Of a stretch of 64,000 nt of DNA, positions 1,340 through 34,031 are shown one piece after another. The position numbers and the translations under genes are program-made. The stretch is from positions 34,050-98,049 of the IMG/VR virus record IMGVR_UViG_3300045131_002463; one strand, given 5' to 3'. How positions within the stretch are numbered: position 1 is the first letter of the stretch; each line of letters starts with the position of its first letter. The notes below the pieces were generated by a model. That model was not told the DNA's origin, did no database searches, and saw only the letters and a list, made by a program, of their open reading frames with translations. The stretch is from a virus.

Positions 1340-1415
1340 TGGCGACTCCTGCGGGGTATGATCCCGCTCCGATAGTTCGACAGACTATCATGCTGCCAGC
1401 TTACACTAAGGAGCC
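1340..1415 (-). tRNA. tRNA-Asp(GTC)
   Basis: GGCTCCT/AGGAGTC acceptor, ATAGT-CTGTCGA-ACTAT, G discriminator, CCA; T-loop ATCATAC. Confidence 0.85.
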
Positions 1416-1547: not shown

Positions 1548-1623
1548 TGGTAGCGGGGACCGGGGATGATCCGGCACAGACTGCCTTATGAGGGCAGTGC
1601 TCTACCAATTAAGCTACCCCGCA
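1548..1623 (-). tRNA. tRNA with CAT anticodon (Met/fMet/Ile2 unresolved)
   Basis: TAGCTTAATTGGTAGAGC D arm, CTGCC-CTCATAA-GGCAG, U1:U72 mismatch, CCA. Confidence 0.85.
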
Positions 1624-2329: not shown

Positions 2330-3862
2330 TTACATTCCCATAATATGTCTCTTTAATGCTTTCCAAGAATCTAGCCCACCTAAAACGTGAAAAATATTAG
2401 GGGACCAGCCAGAGACCATATAAACATCTTTTTGCATAATGTCAATGGGGTAGGTACCGTAAGAAGACAAATCAAACATATATATCTTAGCAGTTGGGTT
2501 TAATTGTTTATACTTATTCCACGAACGCTCAAACGCTGATCTATTCACACTGGAATCTCGAGCCCCATAAAAATGGCTATGCCTACCAAGACCCAGATCT
2601 GAATATATCTGTGAATCCGAGAAAAACATTACATTATCTACGTGCAAATTTCCAGAAATAAGCCAATCAATTACGCGATAACCATACGTGCTTAATCCTA
2701 CTGAGGGCAGCTGAACTCCGCCTATTATTTGGTTTCCAAAAGGCGCTACAGCCCAGTCATTTCCGAAAACTCCAGTTATAACTTTCCCGCATTTCTTAGC
2801 CAGCATTCTTCCTAAAAGGATGCCTACATCTATAAGTCTTATAGAAGAGTTTTTTGAAAGTGGATCATTCATAGAACCACTTACATCACACGCTATAAGC
2901 GTGGCTTCTTTTTTAAGATCCCCTATACCGGGAATATTATCAATAGAAATTATAAGAGCTTTCTCAAACACTTCCTGAAACCTATTCATGTTCATTTGAA
3001 TCTCAGGATCGCGCTCTTCCATCAATCTAGCAAAAGCAGAATACCATCTAAATGGAAATTGTTTAGATTTAAGGATCTGTTGTTCATTCCCTAAAAGTGC
3101 TATCAATTTTTGAATATGCTCTTCACTAATACCAGCCTTCAACATGTTTTTAATATTACGAAGAGCTGCCATATAAGGAATACTATTAGTATCTAGTAGA
3201 TTCTCCCATGCAGCTTTCTTAGCTACTGGATCAGAACCAGCGGCTGATATATCCACTTCCCATGTGGTAATAGGATCTAGGGCATCCTCTAGTATCTGTT
3301 TGTATACAGAGCTTTCTTCTCCTGTTCTGGGCTTAGGGTGACATAAGCATAGGACATCTTTAAATGTAATCTTTTCTTTACTCTGCTTATCGTATTTTCT
3401 AAACTGATAACTATTAAATTTACTAAAAGATTCCGCTATACCTTTCTTTAAGGCATTAGGAATTTTTCTAATATCATGTCCGCCTTTACCTTTTATCCCC
3501 TGCCAAGCAGCTAATAGTTCTTTTATTTCATCTGCCCTAGATACAACCCTAGATACCATAGAGGCAGTAAGTTTATCGTTAAGAGCCAGCCCAACTAGCA
3601 GCACTAACGGTACCGACCTAAGGTACATATCTTTACGTAGGTAAACCGCTAAATTAGCCACGAACTGTGGGTCACATTTAGGAATTAAATCTAGAATAGT
3701 AGCAATAGTCTGATCGGTTTTCTTATAGAAAGTGTCTTGCAGTAGGTTACAAGCTGTAACCGAGTAAAGCTGTTGCTCTGGATCCAGACCTATATATGCT
3801 ACTGCCCCTTCTTCGTTTACTGTTCTTCTTCGATTCTCTGCAACTTCATTAAACCTAGACAT
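2330..3862 (-). CDS. rsr: Ro60/Rsr-like TROVE-domain RNA-binding protein with C-terminal vWA domain
   Basis: NEEGAVAY, YLRKDMYLRSVP, YQFRKY, HPKP, TWE, PYMAALRNI, QFPFR; MIDAS DVSGSM; VSGWS near C-terminus; 510 aa. Confidence 0.92.
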   Translation of the reverse strand: MSRFNEVAENRRRTVNEEGAVAYIGLDPEQQLYSVTACNLLQDTFYKKTDQTIATILDLIPKCDPQFVANLAVYLRKDMYLRSVPLVLLVGLALNDKLTASMVSRVVSRADEIKELLAAWQGIKGKGGHDIRKIPNALKKGIAESFSKFNSYQFRKYDKQSKEKITFKDVLCLCHPKPRTGEESSVYKQILEDALDPITTWEVDISAAGSDPVAKKAAWENLLDTNSIPYMAALRNIKNMLKAGISEEHIQKLIALLGNEQQILKSKQFPFRWYSAFARLMEERDPEIQMNMNRFQEVFEKALIISIDNIPGIGDLKKEATLIACDVSGSMNDPLSKNSSIRLIDVGILLGRMLAKKCGKVITGVFGNDWAVAPFGNQIIGGVQLPSVGLSTYGYRVIDWLISGNLHVDNVMFFSDSQIYSDLGLGRHSHFYGARDSSVNRSAFERSWNKYKQLNPTAKIYMFDLSSYGTYPIDIMQKDVYMVSGWSPNIFHVLGGLDSWKALKRHIMGM

Positions 3863-3891
3863 ATTTTTAACTCCTTGAAATTTATGAAAAA

Positions 3892-4003
3892 GCGCGGGGA
3901 AAGGACTATAACGGGTTTACTGCAGGATTCCAACCTGCAATCCTAGATTGTTGTCTAGTGTGTTTAGCATTTCACGAAGTATCCGTTATATACGCCGCCG
4001 CAC
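3892..4003 (-). ncRNA. Y-RNA-like ncRNA 6 with D/anticodon/T-arm tRNA-like insert
   Basis: Terminal stem GUGCGG/CCGCGC, CGGCGUA...UACUUC motif, GCAGG-UUGGAAU-CCUGC T arm. Confidence 0.75.
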
Positions 4004-4019
4004 CACAAAAGCCAATGTA

Positions 4020-4145
4020 AAGCGCTAGGAAAAAGCTAGAAGAGAAATGCGTCTCACCAACTGACGCCCTCAACTTTCGTTGGGATCGATTCGAACGATT
4101 ACTCATTTTTAATAAGAAGTAACTCTTCTATACGCCGTAGCGCTT
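4020..4145 (-). ncRNA. Y-RNA-like ncRNA 5, YrlA-type
   Basis: AAGCGCUA/UAGCGCUU stem, CGGCGUA, AUCG-UUCGAAU-CGAU T arm, GAAA-capped stem, GCGUCAGUUGGUGAGACGC D arm. Confidence 0.82.
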
Positions 4146-4155
4146 AATTAAAAAG

Positions 4156-4283
4156 TTTGGCAGGAAAAAAGCTGAAAGAGGTGTTTGTGCCCTTTTTTAT
4201 TTTTACAAGGAAAAACCTATTGCTAGGATAAAACCTTTGGTGGACATTTACTGTGAAGTATCTCTCTCATACGCCGTGCCAAA
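4156..4283 (-). ncRNA. Y-RNA-like ncRNA 4
   Basis: UUUGGCA/UGCCAAA stem, CGGCGUA-UGAGAGAG-AUACUUC ... CUCUUUCA-GCUUUUUUCC. Confidence 0.72.
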
Positions 4284-4294
4284 TAGGTAAAAGA

Positions 4295-4365
4295 TACCGG
4301 GGTAAAAGCGATTAAGGAGTCGTCCTAAACTAAAGATGAAGTAACCTTATTCTACGCCGCCGGTA
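4295..4365 (-). ncRNA. Y-RNA-like ncRNA 3 (short)
   Basis: UACCGG/CCGGUA stem, CGGCGUA...UUACUUC motif. Confidence 0.7.
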
Positions 4366-4376
4366 ATTTTTTTTAA

Positions 4377-4508
4377 AAAAAGAGGGAAAAAATGATTAGA
4401 GAGATTTTCGCGTTTTAGTTAAACTATCTCCACAAAGTGAAGAGCAGAATTCTATATCTGCATCACGTCATTGGCATTGAAGTAACTCTAATCTACGCCG
4501 CTCTTTTT
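4377..4508 (-). ncRNA. Y-RNA-like ncRNA 2, degenerate YrlA-type
   Basis: AAAAAGAG/CUCUUUUU stem, CGGCGUA, GCAGA/UCUGC T-like arm, UCUUCAC/GUGGAGA stem, UAGUUUAACUAAAAC D-like arm. Confidence 0.72.
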
Positions 4509-4520
4509 ATTTTTTTATTT

Positions 4521-4590
4521 AAAGCGGGAAAAAACGAGCAAAGTTTTGGTTTCATTTTCAGTGAAGTATCTCTGCTCTACGCCGCGCTTT
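4521..4590 (-). ncRNA. Y-RNA-like ncRNA 1 (short)
   Basis: AAAGCG/CGCUUU stem, CGGCGUA-GAGCAGAG-AUACUUC ... CUUUGCUC-GUUUUUUCC. Confidence 0.7.
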
Positions 4591-4618
4591 TATATCAAAG
4601 ATCTCAAATTCTAAATAT

Positions 4619-4647
4619 ACTATACCACATTTTTAAAAGCTTGTCAA
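4619..4647 (-). promoter_or_regulatory. strong sigma70 promoter of Y RNA/Ro60 operon
   Basis: TTGACA-AGCTTTTAAAAATGTGG-TATAGT (17-nt spacer, TG extension). Confidence 0.8.
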
Positions 4648-4655
4648 GCTTTTTC

Positions 4656-4670
4656 TGCAATCAATTGCAA
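4656..4670. promoter_or_regulatory. palindromic site copy 2
   Basis: TGCAATCAATTGCAA just upstream of the -35. Confidence 0.6.
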
Positions 4671-5369
4671 TTATTTTTTAAATTTTTCTACTATGTCTTC
4701 AAATAATGAAGGTGTTGCAGTATAAACTATATCTAAGAGCATGAAGGCAATTCTTCTAATCTCCCACTCAGCAGCAGTATCTAGACGTAATTTAAAGAAA
4801 TCTCTAAGAGCGCGCGCATTAGCCCATGCATTACGAGTAGTTGCTACATTAACAGGCATAATTAAGCGCGCATCTTGTTTTTTTGCCCCTGTATCAATAA
4901 GAAATTTATAAGCCCTATAAGCATTTTCACATGCCCCTGACATTAATTGATAAGTAGCTTCTACCTCATCTTTGTTCTTTATATACTCTAAAGGAGGATA
5001 AATAAACTTAGGTTGTTGTTGTGTATAACGTCGAGATAAACTTACATGCGCCTGAGTGCGGTGTCGGCTCCATTGCGCCCCCGCAGCTTTTGATAAACCA
5101 GTAACATAAAAGTTATATTGTATAGATTCTATAGGAACGTTGTGCCCCATTTTAATAAGTTTCTTATTGAGCGCTTTTGCTTTTTCTATAGAATTAGCTT
5201 CTTTATTGTATGAGGTTCCAGCGGCTATAGCGGGTATACATTCAATATTTCCTTTAGGATCTTCCGGATCATAGTTACCTATGGGTGTAGTAACAGCAAT
5301 AAGCTTAATTTCCGGTTCTTCGTTCCCGAAGTTATCCTGTCTCAAACTAAACCAAGGATCAAATATCAC
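4671..5369 (-). CDS. thyX: FAD-dependent thymidylate synthase
   Basis: RHRx7SxR motif (RHRTQAHVSLSRRY), GH, ARLIMP, LRLDTAAEWEIR. Confidence 0.92.
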   Translation of the reverse strand: MIFDPWFSLRQDNFGNEEPEIKLIAVTTPIGNYDPEDPKGNIECIPAIAAGTSYNKEANSIEKAKALNKKLIKMGHNVPIESIQYNFYVTGLSKAAGAQWSRHRTQAHVSLSRRYTQQQPKFIYPPLEYIKNKDEVEATYQLMSGACENAYRAYKFLIDTGAKKQDARLIMPVNVATTRNAWANARALRDFFKLRLDTAAEWEIRRIAFMLLDIVYTATPSLFEDIVEKFKK

Positions 5370-29794: not shown

Positions 29795-32389
29795 ATGACG
29801 CTTGGCGCAGCCAGAGTAATATGGAGAATAAACGATCTTAGCCTATTTGTAGATGAAGTGGTTCGCGGGTATGTAACCATGGTCATCAAGGCAGAGCGTG
29901 GAGAGATGGGAAAAGCCCGTATCATCTCTACCATGGAGGAATACAGAAGACGATATGGAAAGAAAGTATCGTGGACGACTGATCCACTGGTAGTTGAAAT
30001 GGCGCTGAGACAAGGCGCTAGACTTAATCTTATTAGAACTGCTCATTATATGGATCCTGCAGATCCTACTACAATAACTGCAACAAAATCTGAATTGACT
30101 CTTTATGATAGGGGAGACACTGCTAACGTAGCTGTTATAGAAAGTGAAGTGGGTCCTTTTGGATTTACTCAGAAATTATCAGGCAGATTCCTGGGAACAG
30201 AAGTAGGACCTTTTACTTTTGAAACAGGTGTTTCTGATAAACTTTCTTTTACAGTTAATGGTGGTACAGCGCAGGAGTTAACCCTTACTGGTACTCTTAC
30301 TACGCAGGCAGTTGCAGATTATATTAATGCACATACAACTGGTATGACAGCTATGGCTGTATATGATGAAGGTAGTGGTCTATACGTACTTAAAGTTTTT
30401 GCTAACACTATTACTCATTCCTTAGGTGTAATTACTATTACGCATTCGGCTTATGAGCTTTTGGGCCTTCCTCTTACTACTACCACTGCTACGGCAGAAA
30501 CAGGAACAGATAATGTAATTCTTACAGTAGATGGTGGGTCTCAGCAATCTCTAACGCTTCTTCCTATTGCTGGAGAAGAAGGGGAATTTACTCTTACTAC
30601 GGGCCAAGTGGTTCAAAGAATGCAAGCCTTTGAGGACGTAGTAGTATACGCAAATGACAACAAAGTAAGAATAGAGACACTGTCTTCTGGAGCAGAAGCC
30701 ACTCTCCAGTTTGTAACTAGTACAGGACTAACTGTTCTTGGTTTCGATACCGACGAAGTAGCTGGTACTGAAGAAGGATCAGTTCAGCCTACTCTTAAAA
30801 TTATCGCTCTTAATGAGGGTGATTGGGGAGACGATCTTAAAGTTATAGTTACAAATTCTCTCTTGCACGAAGATCTATATTTTAACCTTAGAATTATAAA
30901 TGATAGACAAGGCGATATGGAAGAATACTATGCCGATATGTCTATGGATTCTGATAGTGAACGCTATGTAGTGAATTTTCTTGCAGATCAATCCTTTCTA
31001 GTAGAGGTAGTGGATCTACATTCACCTACTGCCGATCCTCTTAATATGCCAGCTACAAATAGCACAGGCAGTTATCTACATGGCGGATCGAATGGTATAG
31101 ACCAGCAGGGCGGTTATTTTGTAGGGAGTGAACTAGGGCCTTTTACCTTCGTTACTGGCACTGATGATAAGATGTCACTTCAGGTTGGATCAGACGTAGC
31201 TATGGATATAACTCTTTCAGGGTCTGCTAAAACTCTTGCAGAAGTAGTTATCCAACTTAATGATGCTCTTACAGGAGCAACTGCAACAGCATACAACAAT
31301 AGACTTAGAATTGAGGCTAATGATGTAGCAGATAATTTGCATCTTCTTGCTGTTGATAAAGACTGTTATACAGTTCTTGGGCTTACTGCTGACACTTATC
31401 TAGCTAATGATGGATTCGATGATGCAGACTGGATAGGAGACGCAGCCGCGCAGACTGGTATTTACGCTGCAGATATGACGTATATGTCAATGGACCTTAT
31501 GGTTCCTGGAACAATATCAGCCACAGTGTATAATGCTATGATTACCTATTGTGAGAATCGTGGTGATATGATGAGTTATGGTGCAACGCCTCCAGGTAAT
31601 GATCCTGAGGATACAGTTGCATGGAGAATGGGAACTGGTAATTATACGCACCCGGCATTCAATAGTCACAGATTTTCTATGTGGTTCGGTAGACCATTGG
31701 TTTTCGATGATAGAGATTCTGCTAAAAGATATATCCCTAATCTAGGACATTTGGCTGCTTGTCTTTGTCGTACAGACAATGATTATGGATCACATTATGC
31801 TCCAGTAGGCCCGAGAAGAGGCGCTGTTCAGCTAGTTGAAGGCATTGACTTTAATATTCAGGACTACAGATCTACTGGTTATGCAGATCTTTTTGCTGAA
31901 TATGGCATTAACTATTTGATGATATCAAAGATGCCTGGAATAGAAGGCGCAATGTTCTGGGAACAAAGGACCTCACAAAGAGCTCCTTCTGCTACTCGTG
32001 AACTAAACGTTATGAGGTTTATCACTGTAGTAAATAGAACTCTTATGCCTATATTAAGAACGTTCCTATTTGAACCTAACCATCCAGTTACGTGGAGGGA
32101 AATTCATAGGGTACTACAACCTGCATTTGATAGCTGGAAAAACAAATATGCCATCTATGACTACTGCCTACAGACAGATCGCGATGCTTTCTTCGATGGC
32201 GGAGAATTAAAGAATGCTGTTCTCAACAGCGGACTAGACATTGATCGCGGCTTGTATAGGTGTCGTGCGTTGATTCAGCCTACTAGGGCTATATACTACT
32301 TGGAGTTCGAGCTCGGTGTGATGCGGACGGGCGAGAGCTTTGAGAACTATAAGTCAATGAAATATCTTCCAGGTTGGATAAGATCATAA
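29795..32389 (+). CDS. contractile tail sheath protein
   Basis: ALNEGDWG, TGIYA, YCENRGD, ELNVMR, FLFEPN, IQPTRAIYYL; start at MTLG behind GGAGG. Confidence 0.88.
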   Translation: MTLGAARVIWRINDLSLFVDEVVRGYVTMVIKAERGEMGKARIISTMEEYRRRYGKKVSWTTDPLVVEMALRQGARLNLIRTAHYMDPADPTTITATKSELTLYDRGDTANVAVIESEVGPFGFTQKLSGRFLGTEVGPFTFETGVSDKLSFTVNGGTAQELTLTGTLTTQAVADYINAHTTGMTAMAVYDEGSGLYVLKVFANTITHSLGVITITHSAYELLGLPLTTTTATAETGTDNVILTVDGGSQQSLTLLPIAGEEGEFTLTTGQVVQRMQAFEDVVVYANDNKVRIETLSSGAEATLQFVTSTGLTVLGFDTDEVAGTEEGSVQPTLKIIALNEGDWGDDLKVIVTNSLLHEDLYFNLRIINDRQGDMEEYYADMSMDSDSERYVVNFLADQSFLVEVVDLHSPTADPLNMPATNSTGSYLHGGSNGIDQQGGYFVGSELGPFTFVTGTDDKMSLQVGSDVAMDITLSGSAKTLAEVVIQLNDALTGATATAYNNRLRIEANDVADNLHLLAVDKDCYTVLGLTADTYLANDGFDDADWIGDAAAQTGIYAADMTYMSMDLMVPGTISATVYNAMITYCENRGDMMSYGATPPGNDPEDTVAWRMGTGNYTHPAFNSHRFSMWFGRPLVFDDRDSAKRYIPNLGHLAACLCRTDNDYGSHYAPVGPRRGAVQLVEGIDFNIQDYRSTGYADLFAEYGINYLMISKMPGIEGAMFWEQRTSQRAPSATRELNVMRFITVVNRTLMPILRTFLFEPNHPVTWREIHRVLQPAFDSWKNKYAIYDYCLQTDRDAFFDGGELKNAVLNSGLDIDRGLYRCRALIQPTRAIYYLEFELGVMRTGESFENYKSMKYLPGWIRS

Positions 32390-32420
32390 CATTTCAATAG
32401 TTTAGACTATCCTCGTCCAC

Positions 32421-32461
32421 GGGCTTTCACTTTTTTATAAAAGGTGAGAGCCTTTTTTTTT
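32421..32461 (+). terminator. intrinsic terminator after sheath
   Basis: GGGCTTTCACTTTT/AAAGGTGAGAGCC + T-run. Confidence 0.75.
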
Positions 32462-32479
32462 ATTTTTCGAATTATTTAC

Positions 32480-32508
32480 TTGACAAGCTTATTTTTTTGT
32501 GGTATATT
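32480..32508 (+). promoter_or_regulatory. sigma70 promoter of accessory island
   Basis: TTGACA-AGCTTATTTTTTTGTGG-TATATT. Confidence 0.75.
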
Positions 32509-32514
32509 AAAACC

Positions 32515-32600
32515 ATGCTGCTCACAAAGCAGCTGGCCCCCAAACCCCCCTCGGGGCCGAGAGGTGTAGCTGTTCCGCCTCTTCAAATAATAGAACAGCA
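32515..32600 (+). ncRNA. structured leader/ncRNA with H-type pseudoknot
   Basis: GCUGCU/AGCAGC and GGCCCC/GGGGCC hairpins, then S1 GAGAGGUG/CGCCUCUU and S2 GCUGUUC/GAACAGC. Confidence 0.5.
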
Positions 32601-32621
32601 CTCTTTTTAGAAGGGAACTGT

Positions 32622-33263
32622 ATGGAAAAAATTCCAATTACGGATGTAGATGATGATCTTATAAAGAATAATTCTAAACAGCTTAGAGCTGTATTAGAGG
32701 ATAGGCTTCTTACTTACTGGATTAATAAAGAATTATTTCAGGAAGATACTCTCATTATATCTGGTATTACTGGTATAGGGCCAAAAGAAGAGGGAGGGTC
32801 TCCTCAGCTGGTTATTAATTATCATGTGCTTTGTCATGAAGAGGACGGAGTTCATCGTTTTCTTTATTATACTACAGAGCACTCTCTTCATAGAAGTATA
32901 TTAGCTAGGATTGATAAACAGCCTGATGATTATGATCCTAAAGAAGATGACATGCAGAATGAGTTCACTAACGGGAATATTGGTGAAGGAGAAGGGCGAA
33001 ATTTTTCGCGCCATGAATTGAACGGTCCTGTTTTCTATGATGAGGTAGAATTTCAACCTATAGAAGTAATAGAGGATTGGTTTCTTAATTACAGAGTAGG
33101 GACTGCGGTAGAGGCGCTCTTTAAATATAATTATCTTGAAGATATTTCATATTTAGAACAAGCTATATGGATTCTACTTAGAGAACGAGAAAGTGCTATT
33201 CCAGGAAACTCAACACCAGCCTTTAGTCAATCAGAAGGAATTGGGAGTGAAGATTGTAGTTGA
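32622..33263 (+). CDS. hypothetical protein with degenerate DUF3310-like C-terminal domain
   Basis: NGPVFY..FQPIEVIEDW..YRVGTAV..LEQAIWIL. Confidence 0.5.
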   Translation: MEKIPITDVDDDLIKNNSKQLRAVLEDRLLTYWINKELFQEDTLIISGITGIGPKEEGGSPQLVINYHVLCHEEDGVHRFLYYTTEHSLHRSILARIDKQPDDYDPKEDDMQNEFTNGNIGEGEGRNFSRHELNGPVFYDEVEFQPIEVIEDWFLNYRVGTAVEALFKYNYLEDISYLEQAIWILLRERESAIPGNSTPAFSQSEGIGSEDCS

Positions 33264-33546
33264 TAAGAAAACTTTAGAAGATGTAGCACAGATGCTTATT
33301 AAATATGGAAGCGTTACAGATTCCTTGAGTAATCTTAAATCTTGCGGGGAGGGATTACAGGAGATTCTAGAGAGTGCCCTGGATTTTAATTCTGTACTGC
33401 TTACTGATTTTCTTGAAGTACAAGGAATGAAGCAAGCTATGCTAGAAATATTGGACATGCTTGTGTTTTACAATAATACCCCTACGATTATAGCAGCTAA
33501 GGCAGATGGATTAAGAGAAACTTTAATGAAGGAGAATAGAGAATGA
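33247..33546 (+). CDS. hypothetical protein
   Basis: Helical ORF; start uncertain (GTG). Confidence 0.5.
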   Translation: MKIVVDKKTLEDVAQMLIKYGSVTDSLSNLKSCGEGLQEILESALDFNSVLLTDFLEVQGMKQAMLEILDMLVFYNNTPTIIAAKADGLRETLMKENRE

Positions 33547-33968
33547 GAAAGATTTTAGTGTTAGTAGTGTCCTTATTGATGTTTACCGTTTCATACGCGC
33601 AGGTGAAACCTCAAGGTGAAACTTTGAATTTTCCCGCTTTTAAATTTCCTAATAATTCCGCGTATCAAAGTAAGATTAGACGCGCGCAGGAACCTGAGAA
33701 GAAGGTATCAGTTAACAGGCTTCCTCAGCAGCGAGATTTCGCGCCTAGAAAACAAATAAGAAAAACGTATAGACCTCAGCAGGTTTATTACTATCAGAAT
33801 TATTCACAGCCTGTGTATGACCCTTGTTCTTACAGCTACTGTCAGCAGCAATACCCATGGGTTAGTACTCCTCAACGTCAACTTCCTATATGCGTTTCTG
33901 CTGTGCAGCGAGTGTGCGTTTTTCCTTTCGATGTGCTCTCGCTGCTATTCGGGGGAGGAGACTGGTAA
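33543..33968 (+). CDS. secreted/membrane hypothetical protein
   Basis: Signal peptide MRKILVLVVSLLMFTVSYA. Confidence 0.6.
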   Translation: MRKILVLVVSLLMFTVSYAQVKPQGETLNFPAFKFPNNSAYQSKIRRAQEPEKKVSVNRLPQQRDFAPRKQIRKTYRPQQVYYYQNYSQPVYDPCSYSYCQQQYPWVSTPQRQLPICVSAVQRVCVFPFDVLSLLFGGGDW

Positions 33969-34031
33969 TTAATTGCACCTAATTATCAAGTGTTACTTCA
34001 AGAAAAAAATGCAACCTTTTGATCTTTTTAC

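What the first reader, a model, noticed from the sequence alone, without database searches (positions are those of the whole stretch)
3892..4508. Two opposite tRNA-mimic topologies inside the Y RNA array
Seen: element 4020-4145 has a T arm (AUCG-UUCGAAU-CGAU), a GAAA-capped acceptor-like stem, then a D arm (GCGUCAGUUGGUGAGACGC). This is the circularly permuted order known for YrlA, and 4377-4508 is a degenerate version. Element 3892-4003 instead has the canonical order D arm (GUG..CAC), anticodon-like arm (CUAGA-CAACAA-UCUAG, 6-nt loop), T arm (GCAGG-UUGGAAU-CCUGC), so the Ro stem replaces the acceptor stem. Two elements (4295-4365, 4521-4590) are nearly handle-only. Inference: the anticodon-exposing version could act as a decoy for anticodon nucleases, a Y RNA class I do not recognise.
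Basis: partly seen in the sequence, partly recalled or inferred. Interest (0 to 1): 0.75.

Follow-up and report, generated by a model that had tools for sequence, protein, structure and literature searches.

The report
Phage Y RNA with native-order tRNA body
Upstream of its Ro60 gene a lake phage encodes six Y RNAs, and they show tRNA look-alikes in both known layouts: the back-to-front YrlA kind and a complete normal-order cloverleaf closed by the Ro60-docking stem, which is a conserved class so far seen only in phages.

Summary
On the minus strand, between thyX and a TROVE/Ro60 gene, six elements (4590..3892) share one two-helix handle. Its motif GGCGUA...UACUUC occurs 6 times against 0.04 expected.

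- **Y2 (4145..4020):** folds as T arm, GAAA-capped acceptor-like stem, then D arm, which is the YrlA layout.
- **Y5:** a decayed copy of the same layout. Its orthologue in a 99%-related phage is intact.
- **Y1 (4003..3892):** a D arm, anticodon arm and T arm in normal tRNA order, plus 4 bp of acceptor stem continued by the handle. It scores 30.8 bits on Rfam tRNA (cut-off 29).

I found 12 Y1-type elements in phage contigs. Their Ro60 proteins are 23-99% identical, where one was found. 97% of cells pair and 23 of 34 pairs show double changes. One lineage also swaps the G19:C56 elbow contact.

Both layouts recur in the arrays of two other phages. The core looks derived from tRNA-Leu(UAA). In huge phages it sits inside tRNA arrays and is called tRNA-Leu.

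The layout is not unknown: Chen et al. 2014 drew Deinococcus Yrn1 this way, with a 6-nt "anticodon" loop. The decoy idea is untested. Loop length varies from 4 to 9 nt, which argues against it for this phage.

This scan noted similar acceptor-less tRNA mimics on other phage DNA before.

The parts
4619..4647 (-). sigma-70-type promoter TTGACA-17-TATAGT with TG, upstream of the first Y RNA
   Evidence: 11 of 12 matches, the only strong site in 3700-4800. RNA-seq contig depth drops upstream of it.
4521..4590 (-). Y6: handle plus a short hairpin
   Evidence: Conserved in L003 and L004.
4377..4508 (-). Y5: decayed YrlA-type element (8-nt T-like loop, UUU-capped stem, no GG D-loop)
   Evidence: R3 gives 33.9 bits, about what the non-YrlA elements Y1 (34.6) and Y3 (30.7) score, so the match rests mostly on the shared handle. 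The L004 orthologue scores 52.2 bits. The L003 orthologue has T CGCGGG-UUCAACU and D GCC-GAGUGGUUA-GGC.
4295..4365 (-). Y4: handle plus a short hairpin
4160..4282 (-). Y3: handle with an A/U-rich payload without tRNA-like arms (not listed in the finding)
   Evidence: (z 0.24). Conserved in L003 and L004.
4020..4145 (-). Y2: YrlA-type permuted tRNA mimic. V hairpin 4121..4100, T arm 4099..4085, GAAA-capped acceptor-like stem 4084..4068, D arm 4067..4049.
   Evidence: Compensatory changes in the T and acceptor-like stems in L004. Model R3, built from it, finds YrlA-type elements in many Ro60 loci and in phage CcrColossus.
3892..4003 (-). Y1: native-order tRNA mimic on the Y handle. Basal helix 4003..3995 with 3899..3892; upper helix 3990..3983 with 3914..3907; acceptor remnant 3981..3978 with 3921..3918; D arm 3975..3960; anticodon-like arm 3958..3943 (6-nt loop); T arm 3938..3922.
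2330..3862 (-). Ro60/TROVE gene. RBS AAGGAG lies about 20 nt after Y1.
   Evidence: (PF05731, E 2.5e-23)

Best explanation
The stretch is the leader of a phage RNA-repair-type operon: promoter, six Y RNAs, Ro60, small ORFs and tRNAs. RtcB and an RNA ligase lie just beyond the window.

Each Y RNA has the same Ro60-docking handle: a basal helix, an internal loop with 5' GGCGUA and 3' UUUUCC, an upper helix, then UACUUC. Each carries a different payload.

Y2 (and the decayed Y5) are YrlA-type circularly permuted tRNA mimics. In these the handle continues the anticodon stem and the acceptor stem is closed by a loop.

Y1 belongs to a second class, conserved and so far found only in phages. Here a whole tRNA body in normal order, most like tRNA-Leu(UAA) without its long variable arm, is closed at the acceptor end by the handle. 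Ro60 would therefore sit where the amino acid would be, and the elbow and anticodon arm point outward.

Inferred mechanism, not shown: after processing of the precursor, each Y RNA docks on Ro60. The L-shaped payload tethers the ring to, or gates it against, proteins that recognise tRNA shape. The two topologies offer opposite ends of the L.
For: Handle:
- The motif occurs 6 times against 0.04 expected.
- Single-sequence MFE folds recover both handle helices in all 12 Y1-type sequences.
- A canonical GNCGAANG variant occurs in L007:1076.
- The same GGCGUAG occurs in the CcrColossus YrlA.

Y1 fold:
- Rfam tRNA 30.8 bits for the window, and 35.7-51.5 bits for 9 relatives.
- Model R2 separates Y1-type hits (63-127 bits) from everything else (41 bits or less) in 138 Ro60 loci.
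- The 12-sequence alignment A8 has 97.3% of cells paired and 23 of 34 pairs with double changes. 0 of 500 shuffles reach this, and slid controls give 38-53%.
- D-loop GC with T-loop U(U/C)G in the window and L003, against GG with UUC in the other 10, which is a C19:G56 swap.

Association with Ro60:
- Adjacent in the window, L003 and L004.
- 0.7-2.2 kb away in L007, L013, L018, L015 and L147.
- In the same record but 40-160 kb away in three huge-phage records.

Other points:
- Both topologies share one array in the window clade, in L015 and in L018.
- Resemblance to tRNA-Leu.
- Operon context: one strong promoter; RtcB and an RNA ligase downstream.
- Metatranscriptome contigs span rsr through Y6, with depth falling upstream of the promoter (one study, weak).
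Against: - No binding, processing or expression-end data exist. Contigs cannot show RNA ends.
- Rfam YrlA (RF02553) does not hit Y2 even at E 10 or less.
- The covariation counts come from a model-fitted alignment. A plain MAFFT/RNAalifold run recovers only the D and T arms.
- In three huge-phage records the Y1-type element is 40-160 kb from Ro60, lies inside a tRNA array and scores like a tRNA (51 bits). A Ro60 partnership there is an assumption.
- The tertiary swap is a single evolutionary event.
- The effector is unknown.
Confidence: 0.7

Rival explanations
1. Y1 is a bait or competitive inhibitor for host enzymes that cut tRNA anticodon loops. The exposed anticodon arm soaks up the nuclease, while the closed acceptor end and Ro60 keep the RNA out of translation.
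For: - The phage carries RtcB, an Rnl2-family ligase and its own tRNAs next to the array, the classic tool-kit against tRNA-cutting defences.
- In the huge-phage clade the loop is a canonical 7-nt Y-U-U-A-N-N-N, identical to the resident tRNA-Leu(UAA) loop in L148 and L144 (and in L147's tRNA-Leu), while the stem below it covaries.
- A similar idea is in print for YrlA (PMC7790460).
Against: - In this phage the loop is 6 nt (CAACAA), and it differs in close relatives: CUACAA, and a 9-nt loop at 91% Ro60 identity.
- L015 has a GNRA tetraloop and L007 has 5-7 nt.
- No anticodon identity is conserved across clades.
- No nuclease partner is known.
Confidence: 0.12
2. Y1-type elements are tRNA or pseudo-tRNA genes whose leader and trailer happen to pair. 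They are not Ro60 partners. In this window one simply decayed next to real Y RNAs.
For: ARAGORN at default settings of the 12 as tRNA: Leu-taa, Ile-tat, Ser-cga, Ile-aat. Rfam tRNA reaches 45-51 bits in the huge-phage clade. There they lie inside tRNA arrays, far from Ro60.
Against: - The flanking two-helix handle, with its GG/CC pairs, UUUCC and UACUUC, is conserved with covariation in all 12. In the window it is the same as in the five sibling Y RNAs.
- Only 4 acceptor pairs are conserved, and no CCA is encoded after the acceptor remnant in the sequences inspected.
- A 'tRNA-Leu' without the long variable arm sits beside a true 86-nt tRNA-Leu(taa).
- The window's loop is 6 nt.
Confidence: 0.1
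3. The tRNA-shaped payloads are mainly processing signals. RNase P, RNase Z or RNase E recognise them to cut the long precursor into single Y RNAs, the rsr mRNA and the tRNAs, as in tRNA-punctuated transcripts.
For: - One promoter and no predicted terminators inside the array.
- Y RNAs and tRNAs are interleaved in L007, L018 and the huge-phage arrays.
- M. smegmatis YrlA is cut by RNase P, and YrlA and YrlB come from one precursor (PMC4201824).
Against: - Y3, Y4 and Y6 have no tRNA-like payload yet would need excision too.
- A closed, extended acceptor helix is a poor RNase P substrate (PMC4201824 makes this argument for most YrlA).
- It does not explain the conserved anticodon arm.
Confidence: 0.08

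Closest known systems
YrlA (Y RNA-like A; Rfam RF02553; Chen et al. 2014, PMC4201824; Wang et al. 2018, bioRxiv 10.1101/312249)
   Same: Encoded beside Ro60 on the same strand. Terminal Ro60-binding stem with a GNCG-type 5' motif. An L-shaped tRNA mimic as payload. Y2 has the same order: V, T, closed acceptor stem, D.
   Different: Y2 is not detected by RF02553, and its motif reads GGCGUA instead of GNCGAA. Y1 has the opposite connectivity: the handle sits at the acceptor end and an anticodon arm is present.
Deinococcus radiodurans Yrn1 (Chen et al. 2013, 2014)
   Same: D-like, 'anticodon' (5 bp, 6-nt loop) and T stem-loops lie in normal tRNA order between the two strands of the Ro60-binding stem, with no variable arm. 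This is the same connectivity as Y1.
   Different: In Yrn1 the D arm is incomplete and the tRNA likeness is called 'less evident' (10.1101/312249). Y1-type RNAs have a full D arm, A14, R15:Y48, the G18G19/T-loop contacts and 4 acceptor pairs. I could not test sequence homology to Yrn1 or PNPase binding.
tRNA-Leu(UAA) of the same phages
   Same: D stem GUG/CAC, anticodon loop CUUAAAA and a near-identical T arm in L148. Rfam tRNA scores up to 51 bits.
   Different: No long variable arm. Acceptor stem reduced to 4 conserved pairs and continued by the handle. No free ends. The loop has degenerated to 6 nt in the window.
Thermus phage phiLo Yrl1/Yrl2 with phage Ro60 (PMC12135203)
   Same: Phage-encoded Y-like RNAs lie upstream of a phage Ro60 and were shown there to bind it and host PNPase.
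   Different: Only two RNAs, identified by a CGAA motif. That paper describes no tRNA-like payload.

Membership tests
Bacterial/phage Y RNA (Ro60 partner) | Encoded within about 4 kb of a Ro60/TROVE gene, on the same strand | tested here: met
   Array at 4590..3892 and Ro60 at 3862..2330, both minus strand.
Bacterial/phage Y RNA (Ro60 partner) | Stem formed by the 5' and 3' ends, carrying the 5'-strand motif GNCGAAN0-1G | tested here: inconclusive
   The stem is present and covaries. The motif reads GGCGUA(N0-2)G, one base off, in five of the six elements; Y1 has GGCGUA but no following G within two bases. The same variant occurs in the CcrColossus YrlA, and the exact motif in L007:1076.
Bacterial/phage Y RNA (Ro60 partner) | Bound and stabilised by Ro60 | not testable with these tools
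   Needs RIP, EMSA or co-expression.
YrlA (RF02553) | Payload order T arm, closed acceptor-like stem, D arm, with conserved T and D loops | tested here: met
   Met by Y2 and by the L003/L004 Y5 orthologues. Window Y5 meets it only partly. Y1 does not: its order is D, anticodon arm, T.
YrlA (RF02553) | Reaches the Rfam gathering score (69 bits) | tested here: not met
   No RF02553 hit in 3700-4800 even at E 10 or less. Partial hits of 39-41 bits in the L015 and L018 arrays.
Yrn1-type Y RNA | D, anticodon-like and T stem-loops in normal order between the strands of the Ro60 stem | tested here: met
   Y1. The published description is in PMC4201824, section 6 and the discussion.
Yrn1-type Y RNA | Sequence homology to D. 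radiodurans Yrn1, and tethering of PNPase | not tested
tRNA (RF00005) | Covariance-model score at or above 29 bits | tested here: met
   30.8 bits for 3984..3914, missed with default filters. Relatives score 35.7-51.5 bits.
tRNA (RF00005) | 7-nt anticodon loop, and a 7-bp acceptor stem with free ends | tested here: not met
   6-nt loop. 4 acceptor pairs, then an internal loop and an 8-bp helix. No free end and no CCA. ARAGORN at default settings finds nothing here.

The most novel reading that the evidence does not exclude
Phages mount a complete but unchargeable tRNA-Leu-like body on Ro60. The exposed anticodon arm and elbow then act as bait, sensor or competitive inhibitor for host tRNA-cutting defence nucleases. 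The YrlA-type siblings in the same array cover enzymes that read the acceptor end. Together the Y RNA array would be a modular anti-defence panel working with the phage's RtcB, ligase and tRNAs.
Probability: 0.12. Interest if true: 0.85.

Novelty: new variant of a known kind. Interest (0 to 1): 0.6.

Why it matters
Y RNAs are thought to work by tethering Ro60 to other proteins through their variable module, but the partners of the tRNA-like modules are unknown.

- **A natural comparison.** One phage operon encodes both connectivities of a tRNA mimic on the same handle. It is a ready-made experiment on which end of the tRNA shape matters.
- **A better model of the Yrn1 layout.** The native-order class is a well-folded, covariation-supported version of the poorly defined Yrn1 layout.
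- **Origin.** It links Y RNAs directly to a tRNA-Leu ancestor.
- **Annotation.** Some "tRNA-Leu" genes annotated in huge-phage tRNA arrays are probably not tRNAs.
- **Function.** The link to RtcB, an RNA ligase and phage tRNAs places these RNAs in the contest over tRNA cleavage between phages and hosts.

Tried and rejected
The 60-85% identical Ro60 relatives P0003-P0017 could not be fetched, so the gap between 91% and 45% relatives stays unsampled.
- **blastn against GenBank phages:** the 1.5-kb locus and the L007 element found nothing.
- **Signature scan of 185,579 prokaryote genomes:** one hit (L161), with no T arm, no tRNA call and no Ro60, so it is a chance match. The pattern was strict, so divergent bacterial versions such as Yrn1 are not excluded.
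- **Direct comparison with Yrn1:** not possible. No Deinococcus sequence could be reached, the supplements of PMC4201824 are not held, and the two Wolin reviews are not held.
- **MAFFT plus RNAalifold on 11 Y1-type sequences:** recovers only the D and T arms, because the covarying helices are misaligned. I therefore checked the handle with single-sequence folds instead.
- **Other D-before-T hits of model R2 at 41 bits or less:** most proved to be ordinary tRNAs with flanks. Only L015:4686-4825 is a further native-order Y RNA. L077:3083-3200 is a variant with the T arm last and no D arm.
- **Model R3 around the Ro60 genes of the huge-phage records:** no YrlA type found.
- **RNA-seq runs:** held only as contigs, so they cannot give RNA ends, strand or level. 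Contig ends at 4589 and the 4156/4481 joint reflect strain variants resembling L004, not processing.
- **ARAGORN at 80% thresholds:** calls Y1, but also calls a spurious tRNA-Lys across the Y1/Y2 boundary.

Full report
**What is there**

The window is part of a 98-kb IMG/VR viral record found in lake-water metagenomes. On the minus strand the order is:

- thyX (5369..4671; Pfam Thy1).
- One strong sigma-70-type promoter (4647..4619; 11 of 12 matches plus TG).
- Six small elements.
- A ribosome-binding site and a 510-aa TROVE/Ro60 gene (3862..2330; E 2.5e-23).
- Small ORFs and tRNA-Met, tRNA-Asp and tRNA-Tyr.

Just beyond the window edge, on the same strand, lie RtcB and an Rnl2-family RNA ligase. 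This resembles the rsr-yrlBA-rtcBA operon of Salmonella (PMC7790460).

**The six elements**

The six elements are Y6 4590..4521, Y5 4508..4377, Y4 4365..4295, Y3 4282..4160, Y2 4145..4020 and Y1 4003..3892.

They share one handle. It consists of a basal helix, an internal loop with 5' GGCGUA and 3' UUUUCC, an upper helix, and then (A/U)UACUUC. The motif GGCGTA-N(2-12)-TACTTC occurs six times, all in this stretch, against 0.04 expected from shuffles.

The motif is one base away from the GNCGAAN0-1G motif that Chen et al. 2014 assign to Ro60 binding (PMC4201824). The same GGCGUAG variant is in the YrlA-type RNA I found upstream of Ro60 in Caulobacter phage CcrColossus. PMC12135203 cites Chen et al. 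for Y RNA-like RNAs in that phage.

**Checking the observation**

- **Y2:** V hairpin, T arm AUCG-UUCGAAU-CGAU, GAAA-capped stem, D arm GCGUC-AGUUGGUGA-GACGC. z = -2.9.
- **Y1:** D arm GUG..CAC, CUAGA-CAACAA-UCUAG, GCAGG-UUGGAAU-CCUGC. z = -3.3.
- **Y4 and Y6:** 70-71 nt, with only a short hairpin.
- **Y3:** It has an A/U-rich payload with no tRNA-like arm.
- **Y5:** keeps hairpins at the T, acceptor-like and D positions but has lost the UUCRA loop and the GG D-loop.

The Y5 orthologue in a phage whose Ro60 is 99% identical (L003) is a well-formed YrlA type with a D arm GCC-GAGUGGUUA-GGC. "Degenerate" is therefore right for this genome.

**Is Y2 a YrlA?**

By architecture, yes. The order is T, closed acceptor stem, D, as in Chen et al. 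2014 and the crystal structure paper (10.1101/312249).

The 91% relative L004 shows compensatory changes in the T stem (AUCG/CGAU to ACCG/CGGU) and in the acceptor-like stem (CAAC/GUUG to CAGC/GCUG).

Model R3, built from the three Y2 orthologues, finds elements with the same T-then-D order next to Ro60 in many bacterial and phage contigs at 30-52 bits. It also finds the CcrColossus element at 29 bits, E 3e-4.

By the curated model, no. Rfam RF02553 gives no hit in 3700-4800 even at E 10 or less. It partially matches YrlA-type neighbours in L015 and L018 at 39-41 bits against a gathering score of 69.

**Y1 is a real, conserved structure**

The core at 3984..3914 scores 30.8 bits on Rfam tRNA (gathering score 29) in the sensitive local search, with a 6-nt anticodon loop. 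ARAGORN calls it only at 80% thresholds, as a tRNA with a two-base anticodon.

Model R1, from the three close orthologues, found full-length matches at 63-66 bits in distant phage loci:

- L007 and L013, whose Ro60 is 45% identical.
- L018, whose Ro60 is 37% identical.

The rebuilt model R2 separates these (96 bits or more) from everything else in 138 Ro60 loci (41 bits or less). A DNA signature scan of IMG/VR added six more at 63-81 bits in A/T-rich contigs.

On the 12-sequence alignment:

- 97.3% of cells pair.
- 23 of 34 pairs have changes on both sides.
- No shuffle of 500 reaches the observed values.
- Sliding the partners by 1-3 columns drops pairing to 38-53%.

Both handle helices, the anticodon stem and the T stem covary. 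The D stem GUG/CAC is invariant, and the four inner acceptor pairs UACU/AGUA are invariant or nearly so.

This alignment is fitted to the model, so I checked it independently. MAFFT plus RNAalifold recovers only the D and T arms. Single-sequence folds recover the basal and upper handle helices in all 12 sequences and the T arm in 11.

There is also a tertiary signal. The window and L003 have D-loop U-G-C-U together with T-loop U(U/C)GGAAU. The other ten have GG together with UUC. This is the G19:C56 elbow pair swapped to C19:G56, with no mixed combinations. It is a single event, so only suggestive. A14 and an A15:U48 pair are also kept in most sequences.

**Where the class occurs**

The native-order element lies:

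- directly upstream of Ro60 in the window clade;
- 1.1 kb upstream in L007 and L013, interleaved with short Y RNAs and seven tRNAs;
- 2.2 kb upstream in L018;
- 0.7 kb downstream in L015 (4686-4825, where the anticodon stem is capped by a GNRA tetraloop);
- 1.6 kb downstream in L147.

L015 and L018 carry YrlA-type elements in the same arrays. Co-occurrence of both connectivities therefore recurs in at least three lineages.

In the A/T-rich clade the element sits inside large tRNA arrays. That clade includes the GenBank huge phages LR756502.1 and LR745206.1. ARAGORN at default settings calls it a 74-nt tRNA-Leu(taa), or tRNA-Ile(tat) in one case, and Rfam tRNA gives 45-51 bits. All three long records of that clade encode a TROVE protein, but 40-160 kb away.

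The core resembles the resident true tRNA-Leu(UAA). It has the same D stem, the same loop CUUAAAA and a near-identical T arm in L148. It lacks the long variable arm and has an A/U-rich acceptor continued by the handle.

A strict signature scan of one genome from each of 185,579 prokaryote species gave only one hit, a chance match. With this signature, the class is seen only in phage contigs.

**Comparison with what is known**

Chen et al. 2014 model D. radiodurans Yrn1 with D-loop features, a 5-bp "anticodon arm" with a 6-nt loop, a T arm and no V arm. They state that the orientation of the T and D arms relative to the 5' end differs between YrlA and Yrn1 (PMC4201824). Wang et al. 2018 call the Yrn1 resemblance "less evident".

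What I did not find in the papers I could search:

- a complete cloverleaf of this orientation with covariation support;
- its conservation in phages;
- its tRNA-Leu ancestry;
- its co-residence with YrlA types in arrays of up to six Y RNAs.

This scan has noted similar acceptor-less tRNA bodies on Ro60-type handles in other phage genomes. I treat those notes as leads, not evidence.

**Function**

- **Consistent with the sequence:** one promoter, no predicted terminators within the array, and a contiguous metatranscriptome contig from rsr through Y6. Depth is 10-70 over the operon and 0-5 upstream of the promoter, in four runs of one study. This is weak, because contigs cannot prove one transcript.
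- **Inferred:** processing into single Y RNAs, docking on Ro60 through the handle, and use of the L-shaped payload to tether or gate Ro60 towards tRNA-recognising proteins. The two connectivities would place Ro60 at opposite ends of the L.

The anticodon-nuclease decoy remains possible. The RNA-repair context and the conserved Y-U-U-A loop of the huge-phage clade favour it. For this phage, the 6-nt loop and the loop-length variation across relatives (4, 5-7, 6, 7 and 9 nt) argue against precise anticodon-loop mimicry.

**Verdict**

This is a new variant of a known kind: a Yrn1-like connectivity realised as a full tRNA mimic, in a phage Y RNA array that also contains YrlA types.

Noticed in passing
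L147:6780-7120 (+): Rfam tmRNA match of 29.2 bits, E 6e-8 (below the gathering score of 47). It lies directly upstream of the native-order Y element and a 15-tRNA array in a 98-kb phage contig, so it may be a phage tmRNA.
   Followed up: no
G000 32065-33972 (minus strand, just before window position 1): The two RtcB Pfam matches (model 1-85 and 139-426) are reported inside one 671-aa open frame without stops.
   Followed up: no
window 1343-1415 and 1551-1623 (minus strand): The phage's own tRNA-Asp and tRNA-Met have non-canonical T loops (AUCAUAC, AUCAUCC), whereas the Y RNAs Y2 and (in relatives) Y1 keep UUCRAAU.
   Followed up: no
L148:821-894, L144:7470-7543, L150:181-256, L154:554-628, L152:3242-3316; LR756502.1:402440-402567; LR745206.1:388892-389010: In huge-phage tRNA arrays the native-order Y core is called tRNA-Leu(taa) or tRNA-Ile(tat) by standard tools. 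Such annotations are probably wrong.
   Followed up: partly
L007:1076-2466: Short Y RNAs, the native-order Y RNA, seven tRNAs and another short Y RNA are interleaved in one block directly upstream of Ro60.
   Followed up: partly
L077:3083-3200 and L008:2066-2187: Further payload variants on the same kind of handle. In L077 the T arm comes last, after one long arm and with no D arm, which is closest to the published Yrn1 drawing. In L008 there is a T arm and a GCAA-capped stem without a D arm.
   Followed up: no
window 4156-4481: Metatranscriptome contigs join these two places, and loose ends there match the L004-type Y5 sequence. Several strains that differ in Y3-Y5 coexist in the same lake samples.
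   Followed up: partly
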